Shown here one piece after another: positions 1 through 1,478 of a stretch of DNA of 1,478 bases (its first letter is position 1; every line of letters begins with the position of its first letter). The stretch is from the NCBI GenBank assembly GCA_000004985.1, contig GG739409.1; one strand, written 5' to 3'. The notes below the pieces were generated by a model. The model saw nothing but the letters and a program-made list of their open reading frames with translations. It made no database searches and was not told where the DNA came from. Both the position numbers and the translations under genes were made by a program. The DNA is from Naegleria gruberi (Eukaryota).

Positions 1-171
1 TTCTCTGTGCATGGGATGAATCGTTATAATTTAACCAATTCATTGAATTGCTGATCTTTACATTATAAATTTAAAATAATCTGTATGGAATGGATCCACT
101 AATCTCTTGTTGCATCACCATTTGAATCTCCATAGGAAAAGGTTAAAATCTCTTCATCATTAAGAGAGTTG

Positions 172-414
172 TTATATTTTTTTTAAGGCGCGAAATTCTT
201 TTTCGCAAGTTGTATAATTCTGGAATGTTTCTAGTTGATGTACACAAATCATTGTACTATCCATGGAAGGAGACCTTGAAAATGACGAGTATAAGATAAG
301 CTGTAGTGACACAATCAGGATGTGCTCAATACTCTCCATAGAATAACTAACAGTATGGTTTCATGAAATGGAATGTGGACTTCACTTGCAATATGCTGGT
401 CATCAAAACTGCAT
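172..414 (-). CDS. Candidate small ORF downstream on the same strand and in the same frame (80 aa if TGA is sense). Under the standard code it is the 55-aa ORF MESIEHIL...KKI spanning 172..339.
   Basis: Minus-strand frame identical to the main gene. ATG at 412-414, with a GTG just upstream at 415-417. It reads MQF-TGA-TGA-PAYCK-TGA-SPHSIS-TGA-NHTVSYSMESIEHILIVSLQLILYSSFSRSPSMDSTMICVHQLETFQNYTTCEKEFRALKKI, then TAA at 172-174. There are about 100 codons with no TAA or TAG between the TAA near 469-471 and the TAA at 172-174, which is unlikely by chance in this composition. Five in-frame TGA fall in the first 30 codons. It falls below the ORF-track length threshold under the standard code. The content is weakly protein-like. 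Confidence 0.22.
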
Positions 415-495
415 CACGTCTTGTGTTGGGGTGCTTCACTTTAAGTGTTTATTAAGGTAAGGTTCATTTTACGGAGTGCGTTGTTATACAGGGTC

Positions 496-1314
496 TTAAA
501 CCTATACACAAAAAAAATACAAAAACATTCAATCGTTAACATCATCGTTGTGATGTTCAAGAAGGCTAGCGTGATGACGACTTTGCCATTTAGAAGCGGT
601 AATGCCAAGATCAACAGCATAGGACAAGATACGGAATGCCATATTCATTTGAATTGTTTTTAGAGTTCCACCTTCATCATCCTTAAACTTCTTCTCATTT
701 TCATCACTGGTGCTGACCATTGGAAAAACTTGAATGTTGAGGTAATTAATTTCTGGATTTCTTCAAACTCTGGACTCTGAAAGCCCTGCTAACAACTGAC
801 CTTCATATTTAACAGTTTCGAAGGTGGATCCGTCCAATTCAAGATAACACCTGAAAAACCCAAATAACGACTGGAATAATTGTCAAATTTGGTTATCACG
901 AACATTATTCTAATTGATTTTCTTGAATTCTTCAATTGATTTGACATGGGCAACATCTATTGTAAAGATAACCAACTGAATTCTATTCTCTTCATCGTGG
1001 TTGTCTCGAATGTCATTTACTAGAAATGGTTTTGTTGGATAAATAAGGCCCATGAATAAGTATTCAAAAAATCTTGGTAGGTTCTTTTTGAATCACAACT
1101 TCCATAAACGAATGTTACCATTTTCAAAGTGAATAGTTTCAACCTCTGTTTTCTTAATAATAGAGTTGAGAGAGTCACCAGACTTGAAGAGTTGACCAGA
1201 ATGAAAACTACTGTTACAATTCAATGCTTCGTAGAAGGTATTGAGTAGGCTGGTTTTACCAGCACCCAAAGCAGCTAAACAAATAATGTTCAAGGAAGCA
1301 AAGTGATCTGCCAT
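496..1314 (-). CDS. P-loop NTPase-like protein, 272 codons including the TAA terminator. The continuous reading frame requires TGA (x4) and probably TAG (x1-2) to be read as sense codons. Standard-code fragments of this frame are the ORF-track entries 1093..1338(-) and 529..720(-).
   Basis: Manual translation of the minus strand in one frame. 1314->1096 reads MADHFASLNIICLAALGAGKTSLLNTFYEALNCNSSFHSGQLFKSGDSLNSIIKKTEVETIHFENGNIRLWKL, then TGA. 1092->913 reads FKKNLPRFFEYLFMGLIYPTKPFLVNDIRDNHDEENRIQLVIFTIDVAHVKSIEEFKKIN, then TAG at 910-912. 909->886 reads NNVRDNQI, then TGA at 883-885. 882->766 reads QLFQSLFGFFRCYLELDGSTFETVKYEGQLLAGLSESRV, then TGA at 763-765. 762->532 reads RNPEINYLNIQVFPMVSTSDENEKKFKDDEGGTLKTIQMNMAFRILSYAVDLGITASKWQSRHHASLLEHHNDDVND, then TGA at 529-531. 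528->505 reads MFLYFFCV, then TAG (502-504), GTT, TAA (496-498). There is no in-frame TAA across these 272 codons in AT-rich DNA, and TAA recurs about every 20 codons immediately downstream. Walker A motif A-x4-GKT-S (AALGAGKTS) sits near the N-terminus. Third codon positions are T-rich, consistent with real coding. Start context is aagaaaATGG (A at -3, G at +4) with no obvious Shine-Dalgarno. The ORF track's initial M at 1338 is actually TTG (Leu), so I place the start at the ATG at 1312-1314. If TAG is a genuine stop, the gene would instead be 910..1314 (134 aa) followed by a second same-frame ORF. Confidence 0.55.
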
Positions 1315-1478
1315 TTTCTTATTAATCTGATTAAGCAAACGGTTTCACGTCCTGTCCAACGTAGATAATGAAATCCATAGGAATTGCACAGTCAGATAAC
1401 AATCTAGTTAGCCTTAAGATATGGATTGGATAAATAAACAATAAACAGCCAGGAAATGGAGACATGACTCTACCAAGA

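What the first reader, a model, noticed from the sequence alone, without database searches (positions are those of the whole stretch)
1096..1314. Walker A P-loop N-terminus with a small-GTPase-like layout but no G3, G4 or G5 motifs
IICLAALGAGKTSLLNTF is a canonical P-loop (A-x4-GKT-S) preceded by a hydrophobic strand. The following ...KKTEVETIHFENGNIRLW resembles the switch-I and beta-strand region that in Arf, Rab or AIG1-type GTPases runs straight into the G3 motif (WDxGGQ or DTPG). Here the strand is followed by KL-TGA-FKKNLPRFF with no DxxG. No NKxD or TKxD motif occurs anywhere in the 272 codons. A Walker-B-like hydrophobic strand ending in Asp (IQLVIFTID) appears about 110 residues in. 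This points to an atypical or degenerate P-loop NTPase, possibly a pseudo-GTPase or a different kinase or ATPase fold. Family assignment needs a profile search.
Basis: partly seen in the sequence, partly recalled or inferred. Interest (0 to 1): 0.5.

Follow-up and report, generated by a model that had tools for sequence, protein, structure and literature searches.

The report
Decayed Naegleria GTPase gene copy
The "odd P-loop protein without the other GTPase motifs" is a broken, frameshifted copy (pseudogene) of an uncharacterised GTPase gene known from the amoeba Naegleria gruberi; the missing motifs were either deleted or sit in another reading frame, so the finding is ordinary.

Summary
The P-loop (AALGAGKTS, minus strand, 1249-1275) is real. 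The 272-codon "recoded" frame it was read in is not a gene. Its four in-frame stops (TGA 1093, TAG 910, TGA 883, TGA 763) each lie where the homology runs in a different frame.

A metagenome contig (L001) aligns with the window across the gene and its 3' flank. Its conceptual product is 56-61% identical to Naegleria gruberi hypothetical protein NAEGRDRAFT_58312 (402 aa). That points to a Naegleria-like source using the standard genetic code.

Relatives carry G1 (GALGDGKS), a G3-like WNVPG and a G4 TKFD. The window has lost WNVPG in a 31-nt deletion. It still encodes TKFD at 882-893, in the adjacent frame. It also has six more private deletions (18, 2, 3, 1, 2 and 10 nt), a homology break at about 1345, and no stop-free stretch longer than 83 codons. 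In the diverged N-terminal part, dN/dS against L001 is about 1.

The window and L001 share a further frame-breaking loss of about 13-14 codons, at a predicted helix between strand beta4 and G4.

Verdict: a pseudogene relic of a small, Naegleria-centred orphan family of P-loop GTPases. That family is weakly closest to septin, IRG and AIG1/Toc34 G domains. It is not a pseudo-GTPase and not a recoded gene. Interest is low.

The parts
1345..1347 (-). In-frame TGA at the 5' limit of homology. Upstream of about 1345 the window no longer resembles L001 or P0002, so the first ~108 codons of the intact protein (its N-terminal domain) are absent from the 131 nt that remain.
1102..1344 (-). Segment 1, frame A: NRLLNQINKKMADHFASLNIICLAALGAGKTSLL...IRLW. 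It holds G1 (AALGAGKTS at 1249-1275) and strands beta2/beta3 up to the point where G3 should begin. It carries an in-frame 18-nt deletion after 1296. The Thr shared by L001 and P0002 in S[IV]TK is replaced by Ile (SIIKK).
1099..1100 (-). Junction of the private 31-nt deletion. L001 has CGTGCCAGGATTTTACGAAACAACCGACACT here, encoding NVPGFYETTDT, which is the G3-like WNVPG element.
1073..1099 (-). Segment 2. The ancestral frame here is not frame A and reads VVIQKEPTK. A 2-nt deletion after 1072 brings the homology back into frame A (31 + 2 = 33 nt).
913..1071 (-). Segment 3, frame A: FFEYLFMGLIYPTKPFLVNDIRDNHDEENRIQLVIFTIDVAHVKSIEEFKKIN. This is predicted strand beta4 (IQLVIFTID) and the start of the following helix. 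It carries an in-frame 3-nt deletion after 1013.
910..912 (-). TAG at the frame break that the window shares with L001. Relative to P0002 residues 272-284 (and the matching stretch of P0004), about 13-14 codons are missing and the frame shifts by +1.
831..911 (-). Segment 4, frame B: RIMFVITKFDNYSSRYLGFSGVILNWT. This is strand beta5 plus G4 (TKFD at 882-893).
778..831 (-). Segment 5, back in frame A after a 1-nt deletion (GGG to GG at about 831-833): GSTFETVKYEGQLLAGLS.
729..773 (-). Segment 6, frame B after a 2-nt deletion (after 779): PEFEEIQKLITSTFK.
529..729 (-). Segment 7, frame A after a 10-nt deletion (after 730, which removes NGV): VFPMVSTSDENEKK...HHNDDVND, then the stop TGA at 529-531. 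This is the same stop as in L001 and is the ordinary stop codon of the gene.

Best explanation
The window holds a non-functional relic (pseudogene) of a Naegleria-type P-loop GTPase gene, on the minus strand from about 1344 to 529.

The intact form is represented by N. gruberi NAEGRDRAFT_58312 (P0002). It has an N-terminal domain of about 110 residues followed by a G domain. That G domain carries G1 (GALGDGKS), a G3-like hhhW-N-V-P-G at the end of beta3, the strand RIQLVIFTID (beta4), a helix, and then MFV[LI]TKFD (beta5 plus G4).

In the window copy:
- the 5' part is missing;
- a 31-nt deletion removed G3;
- the helix between beta4 and G4 is deleted with a frameshift (shared with L001);
- three further frame-shifting deletions (1, 2 and 10 nt) break the C-terminal half.

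The frame-shifting changes happen to pair up (31+2, 1+2, shared shift+10). The P-loop frame is therefore regained each time. This produces the illusion of one 272-codon ORF with four readable stops.

Shown: the homology, the indel map, the frames, the loss of G3, the presence of G4 in another frame, and neutral-like divergence.
Inferred: that the locus makes no functional protein; that the source is a Naegleria or a close heterolobosean using the standard code; and that the parent family binds GTP.
For: The DNA alignment of the window with metagenome contig L001 spans the gene and its 3' flank. All seven private indels are deletions in the window.

The conceptual L001 product hits N. gruberi XP_002676097.1 at E = 2.9e-105, 56% identity and 95% coverage. 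tblastn of P0002 places residues 79-271 in one L001 frame and residues 285-401 in the +1 frame.

Each stretch around an in-frame stop in the window matches L001 and P0002 in a different frame: VVIQKEPTK, RIMFVITKFDNYSS..., PEFEEIQKLITSTFK.

dN/dS between the window and L001 is 1.09 over 140 N-terminal codons. Polarised with P0002, L001 keeps the P0002 residue at 16 sites and the window at only 4, with 10 matching neither.

The longest stop-free stretch in any frame is 83 codons.

A second N. gruberi entry, NAEGRDRAFT_70565 (P0003), is a 123-aa fragment model that starts at MFVITKFD and closely matches L001 over its first 114 residues. This suggests that such truncated copies also exist in the reference genome.

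The window's G+C of 35% fits Naegleria, whose low G+C I know from the literature rather than from a tool.
Against: No expression data are available. No larger genomic context for the window was found, so a neighbouring upstream exon cannot be strictly excluded.

The 1-nt and 2-nt deletions alone could be sequencing errors. The 31-, 18- and 10-nt ones are unlikely to be.

L001 keeps clean ORFs on both sides of the shared frameshift. The C-terminal halves of the window and L001 differ by only 4 substitutions. The L001-type copy might therefore still be used in some way.

The pairing of frameshifts back into frame A is a mild oddity. My own estimate is a chance probability of about 1/8.
Confidence: 0.85

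Rival explanations
1. This is a functional gene in an organism with reassigned stop codons (TGA = Trp or Cys, TAG = Gln, with context-dependent termination as in Condylostoma or karyorelict ciliates). It would encode an atypical P-loop protein that truly lacks G3-G5.
For: One frame runs for 272 codons with only four stops. The sequence is AT-rich. The terminal stop is also TGA.
Against: The recoded 261-aa product hits nothing in Pfam or PDB beyond the P-loop. At every in-frame stop, the residues matching L001 and the N. gruberi protein are encoded in another frame. The closest relatives are Naegleria proteins predicted with the standard code. L001 has none of the three TGA readings in its homologous frame.
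Confidence: 0.02
2. The locus is a live gene and the window is a poor-quality (indel-rich) read or assembly of it, or it is rescued by programmed +1 frameshifting at AAT-TAG-A (910-915). The shared frameshift would then be functional and only the private indels would be errors.
For: The AAT-TAG-A junction is identical in two independent assemblies. L001 has intact ORFs on both sides of it. A +1 slip at a stop codon is a known mechanism, for example in antizyme and in Euplotes (from my own knowledge).
Against: The junction coincides with the loss of about 13-14 codons that are present in both P0002 and P0004. This looks like a deletion, not a slippery site. Deletions of 31, 18 and 10 nt are not typical sequencing errors. 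The window also lacks the 5' homology and shows an excess of derived amino-acid changes (16 versus 4), with dN/dS near 1.
Confidence: 0.08
3. This is an expressed truncated P-loop mini-protein: the 73-81 aa ORF at 1093-1338 with a new, GTPase-independent role.
For: An ATG at 1314 (absent from L001, which has GTG) opens a 73-codon ORF containing the P-loop.
Against: G1 plus two strands cannot form a nucleotide-binding fold on their own (established knowledge of the G-domain fold). No identical or similar short protein is on record. Divergence in this part is neutral-like.
Confidence: 0.03

Closest known systems
Naegleria gruberi hypothetical protein NAEGRDRAFT_58312 (XP_002676097.1, UniRef D2VIG5), 402 aa, uncharacterised
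   Same: It is homologous over the whole preserved length: tblastn against the window gives E = 5e-54, and against L001 56-61% identity. The order of elements is the same: G1, beta2/beta3, beta4 (RIQLVIFTID), beta5 plus TKFD, and the C-terminal FKNGVVFP...SKWQ.
   Different: The window copy lacks the N-terminal ~108 residues, the WNVPG element and the helix between beta4 and G4. It is broken by four frame changes. The N. gruberi protein is a continuous 402-aa model.
Naegleria gruberi NAEGRDRAFT_70565 (XP_002674279.1), a 123-aa 'predicted protein'
   Same: Its first 114 residues closely match the C-terminal half encoded by L001 and the window, with a handful of substitutions. It starts exactly at MFVITKFD, just after the frame break.
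   Different: It has a different C-terminal end (…SKWQSR-KMNLTLINT), which joins the coding region to a sequence that lies in the window's 3' flank. Its DNA could not be fetched.
Septin G domains (CDC10, SEPT3, SEPT9; Pfam PF00735)
   Same: They are the best, though weak, matches of the family profile to solved structures (E = 1e-3 to 1e-2, covering G1 to G3 and the following EP..Y segment). They are also the best matches of the low-confidence P0002 model (Foldseek E about 3e-4, TM 0.18-0.27). The layout is similar: GxxGxGKS, hhh-[DN]-x-P-G-[FY], and an R-[VI]-x-hhhh strand before a xKxD.
   Different: No Pfam Septin hit passes threshold (best 3.4e-4 and 20 bits, against a cut-off of 26.2, and only for P0004). 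G3 is NVPG rather than DTPG. G4 is TKFD rather than AKAD. No septin unique element was recognised. Septins are reported absent from Excavata (PMC11238149).
Immunity-related GTPases (IIGP1/Irga6, Irgb6/TGTP2, Gm4951; Pfam PF05049) and AIG1/GIMAP/Toc34
   Same: The L001 product aligns from an N-terminal helix through G1 to W[DN]xPG of Gm4951 ('Interferon inducible GTPase 1C') at E = 0.19. The family profile hits Irgb6, IIGP1, Toc33/34 and GIMAP4 at E = 0.006-0.3. The G4 type is TKxD, as in IRG (TKVD, from my own knowledge).
   Different: All matches are below significance or family thresholds. There is no IRG helical C-terminal domain. The N-terminal domain is different.

Membership tests
Naegleria orphan GTPase family (P0002 / L001 / P0004) | Significant full-length sequence homology to NAEGRDRAFT_58312 | tested here: met
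   tblastn of P0002 against the window gives E = 5e-54. The L001 product against P0002 gives E = 2.9e-105.
Naegleria orphan GTPase family (P0002 / L001 / P0004) | An intact, continuous coding sequence, meaning a functional member rather than a relic | tested here: not met
   There are four frame changes, a 31-nt deletion of G3 and a 5' homology break. The longest stop-free stretch is 83 codons.
TRAFAC-class GTPase (G domain) | G1 / Walker A, [AG]xxxxGK[ST] | tested here: met
   AALGAGKTS lies at 1249-1275. It is homologous to GALGDGKS of L001 and P0002.
TRAFAC-class GTPase (G domain) | G3 / Walker B, hhhhDxxG at the end of beta3 | tested here: not met
   It is deleted in the window (31 nt after position 1100). 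In the intact relatives the element is WNVPG or INTFG, with Asn in place of Asp.
TRAFAC-class GTPase (G domain) | G4, [NT]KxD after beta5 | tested here: met
   TKFD is at 882-893, in the frame adjacent to the P-loop frame. The family profile aligns it with NKCD of Di-Ras2, though weakly.
TRAFAC-class GTPase (G domain) | G2 switch-I Thr and G5 (SAx) | tested here: inconclusive
   No Thr is invariant between G1 and G3 in the three-sequence alignment. The Thr shared by L001 and P0002 in S[IV]TK is Ile in the window. G5 could not be identified. The AF2 model is of low confidence (pLDDT 37).
Septin (PF00735) | A Pfam Septin hit above the gathering score, plus the septin unique element | tested here: not met
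   The best hit is 20.4 bits against a cut-off of 26.2, and only for P0004. There is no hit for P0002 or the L001 product. PDB and Foldseek matches are weak.
IIGP / IRG (PF05049) | A Pfam IIGP hit above the gathering score | tested here: not met
   18.2 bits against a cut-off of 24, for P0004 only. PDB phmmer gives E = 0.19.
Stop-codon-reassigned (ciliate-type) gene | In-frame TGA/TAG at positions where homologues have a sense residue in the same frame | tested here: not met
   At all four stops the homologous residues are encoded in a different frame.

The most novel reading that the evidence does not exclude
The parent family (N. gruberi NAEGRDRAFT_58312, L001, metagenomic P0004) could be a previously unrecognised septin-related ('paraseptin') lineage of GTPases in Heterolobosea, a supergroup reported to lack septins. 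It would have a non-canonical NxxG in place of the G3 DxxG. The L001/window-type copies might even be kept alive by +1 frameshifting at AAT-TAG-A. The window itself would still be only a decayed copy.
Probability: 0.12. Interest if true: 0.5.

Novelty: new member of a known kind. Interest (0 to 1): 0.15.

Why it matters
It matters mainly as a caution. A long frame with a few stops, in AT-rich eukaryotic DNA, was taken for a recoded gene encoding a motif-poor pseudo-GTPase. Comparison with one related contig shows that compensating frameshifts in a pseudogene produce exactly this picture.

The only residual biological interest is in the parent family. It is a tiny, unannotated, Naegleria-centred group of G-domain proteins with Asn at the G3 position. 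Its weak best similarity is to septin, IRG and AIG1-type GTPases.

Tried and rejected
1. Recoded translation (TGA = W, TAG = Q) against Pfam and PDB: only P-loop-length sub-threshold matches.
2. Tiny-intron explanations for the TGA at 1093 and the TAG at 910, checked by eye on the sequence. A 16-nt GT..AG around the TGA gives no G3 after removal. No GT..AG of length 3n+1 bridges the TAG junction. Rejected.
3. A JGI metagenome scan for related loci using family motifs: 282 pattern matches, none confirmed.
4. Exact look-ups of the window's ORF products, to find a longer parent contig: none on record. The DNA for P0002 and P0003 could not be retrieved either.
5. AlphaFold2 of P0002 with a three-sequence alignment: pLDDT 37, usable only for the secondary-structure order. 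The Foldseek hits from it (septins first) are therefore only suggestive.
7. NCBIfam: nothing informative.
8. Rfam and repeat scans of the window: nothing.
9. Literature search for the project accession PRJEB11402: no paper found.

Full report
**What is in the window.** The feature lies on the minus strand. In the frame that starts with ATG at 1314-1312, the translation is MADHFASLNIICLAALGAGKTSLLNTF...IRLWKL, followed by TGA at 1093-1095. That stretch contains four internal stops: TGA 1093-95, TAG 910-12, TGA 883-85 and TGA 763-65. No frame of the window has a stop-free stretch longer than 83 codons. G+C is 35%.

**The recoded product has no family.** I translated the frame with TGA = Trp and TAG = Gln. 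The 261-aa product gives only P-loop-length, sub-threshold Pfam matches and no PDB match.

**Related sequences change the picture.**
- A word-indexed search found one relative, P0001, on a 1235-bp ENA metagenome contig, L001.
- L001 aligns with the window across the gene and its 3' flank.
- In L001, the residues after IRLW are NVPGFYETTDTGVIQKEPAKNYFEH. L001 therefore has a G3-type W-N-V-P-G element.
- The second half of the L001 gene is one continuous ORF that begins ...SIRIMFVITKFDNYSS. That is a TKFD G4 motif.
- The conceptual L001 product (frame 3, then frame 1) hits N. gruberi hypothetical protein NAEGRDRAFT_58312 (P0002, 402 aa) at E = 2.9e-105, with 56% identity and 95% coverage.
- An exhaustive phmmer search with P0002 over 1.84 billion representatives found only three more proteins:
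  - P0003, which is N. gruberi NAEGRDRAFT_70565. It is a 123-aa fragment model that starts at MFVITKFD and closely matches L001 over its first 114 residues.
  - P0004, a 401-aa metagenomic protein with 25% identity.
  - P0005, an animal protein with IIGP, RsgA and AIG1 Pfam matches.
- The source is therefore Naegleria or a close relative, where the standard code applies. The family is very small.

**Indel map.** Relative to L001, the window has seven private deletions. P0002 agrees with L001 wherever the three-way alignment is informative.
- 18 nt after 1296, in frame.
- 31 nt after 1100, which removes NVPGFYETTDT.
- 2 nt after 1072.
- 3 nt after 1013, in frame.
- 1 nt at about 832.
- 2 nt after 779.
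- 10 nt after 730.

Both the window and L001 also lack about 13-14 codons that are present in P0002 (residues 272-284) and in P0004. A +1 frame change occurs at the same place, at AAT-TAG-A (window 910-915).

The ancestral reading frame therefore runs through the window as follows:

| Coordinates | Frame | Translation |
|---|---|---|
| 1344-1102 | A | ...IRLW |
| 1099-1073 | third frame | VVIQKEPTK |
| 1071-913 | A | FFEYLF...IQLVIFTIDVAHVKSIEEFKKIN |
| 911-831 | B | RIMFVITKFDNYSSRYLGFSGVILNWT |
| 831-778 | A | GSTFETVKYEGQLLAGLS |
| 773-729 | B | PEFEEIQKLITSTFK |
| 729-532 | A | VFPMVSTSDENEKK...NDDVND, then the stop |

The TGA at 883-885 is TT-TGA-C, read across the Phe-Asp codons of TKFD. 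The frame-shifting changes pair up (31+2, 1+2, shared shift+10), so frame A is regained each time. That is why the locus looks like one long ORF with readable stops. My own estimate is that such pairing arises by chance with probability about 1/8.

**Evidence for decay.**
- Upstream of about 1345 the homology to L001 and P0002 stops at an in-frame TGA. L001 continues into the N-terminal domain.
- In the diverged N-terminal part, dN/dS between the window and L001 is 1.09 (37 differences in 140 codons). The C-terminal part differs by only 4 substitutions in 124 codons. This mosaic may reflect gene conversion.
- Polarised with P0002, L001 keeps the P0002 residue at 16 of the 30 sites where the two differ. 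The window keeps it at 4, and 10 match neither.
- Derived changes in the window include GDGKS to GAGKT. They also include loss of the Thr shared by L001 and P0002 in S[IV]TK, which is a candidate switch-I residue (this assignment is my inference).
- Together with the loss of G3 and of the helix before G4, this is a pseudogene.
- L001 itself shares the frame-breaking deletion and may also be dead. It is otherwise clean, so I leave that open.

**What the parent family is.**
- Pfam gives only sub-threshold MMR_HSR1 for P0002 and the L001 product (E = 0.003-0.008).
- P0004 gives sub-threshold RsgA, Septin, IIGP and MMR_HSR1.
- A profile of P0002, P0004 and the L001 product, searched against PDB sequences, lists septins first (CDC10 at 1e-3, then SEPT3 and SEPT9). 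Irgb6/TGTP2, IIGP1, Toc33/34, GIMAP4 and Ras-family proteins appear further down. The Di-Ras2 alignment places IFTID on beta4 and MFVLTKxD on MLVGNKCD.
- AlphaFold2 of P0002 with three sequences is of low confidence (pLDDT 37). Its secondary-structure order is that of a G domain, and the helix at 269-282 is the segment missing in L001 and the window.
- Foldseek of that model also lists septins first, with TM only 0.18-0.27.
- The literature reports no septins in Excavata (PMC11238149).

I therefore place the family only as a P-loop GTPase of the TRAFAC class, with septin/IRG/AIG1-like layout. It is not a member of any of those families. One real peculiarity is that the G3 position is Asn, not Asp, in all three full-length sequences: WNVPG, WNVPG and INTFG, with N197 and G200 invariant.

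**Verdict.** The P-loop and the layout are real. The absence of G3 and G4 is not a property of a protein. The locus is a pseudogene copy of an uncharacterised Naegleria GTPase. It is not a recoded gene and not a pseudo-GTPase. Interest is low.

Noticed in passing
window 1-528 (minus strand, downstream of the relic); L001 976-1235: The 3' flank is also conserved with L001. It includes a small L001 ORF (1027-1170, MYLTLINSILVSEKEFRALKKYNDPLIDEEMLTFSNGDSNDDVTIDY). In the window this ORF is interrupted by window-only inserts of 49 nt (after 448) and 178 nt (after 389). It is also shifted by one extra A in the A-run near 185. The homology therefore extends beyond the GTPase gene.
   Followed up: no
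window 913-1344 versus 529-911: Divergence from L001 is mosaic. The N-terminal part shows dS of about 0.09. The C-terminal part has only 4 substitutions in 124 codons. This suggests gene conversion or recombination between copies.
   Followed up: partly
L001 349-363; P0002 residues 194-200; P0004: All full-length family members have Asn instead of the canonical Asp at the G3/Walker B position (WNVPG, INTFG). N197 and G200 are invariant in the three-sequence alignment.
   Followed up: partly
window 910-915; L001 576-582: The window and L001 share an identical AAT-TAG-A junction where the frame changes by +1 and about 13-14 codons (P0002 residues 272-284) are missing. The N. gruberi fragment model NAEGRDRAFT_70565 starts just downstream, at MFVITKFD. 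This may be a family of similarly truncated copies.
   Followed up: partly
P0003 C-terminus versus window ~450-580: The N. gruberi fragment model ends ...SKWQSR-KMNLTLINT. This joins the coding region directly to a sequence that in the window lies about 90 nt downstream (KMNLTLINT, on the minus strand at about 441-470). I saw no canonical GT..AG at the junction by eye. It is probably another deletion, or a doubtful gene model.
   Followed up: no
L002 (JGI metagenome 3300002220, contig MLSBCLC_10482290) 824-2065: The distant family member P0004/P0006 sits as an intact 401-413 aa ORF on a 2.9-kb metagenomic contig with unannotated neighbours. It is the only full-length relative found outside N. 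gruberi.
   Followed up: no
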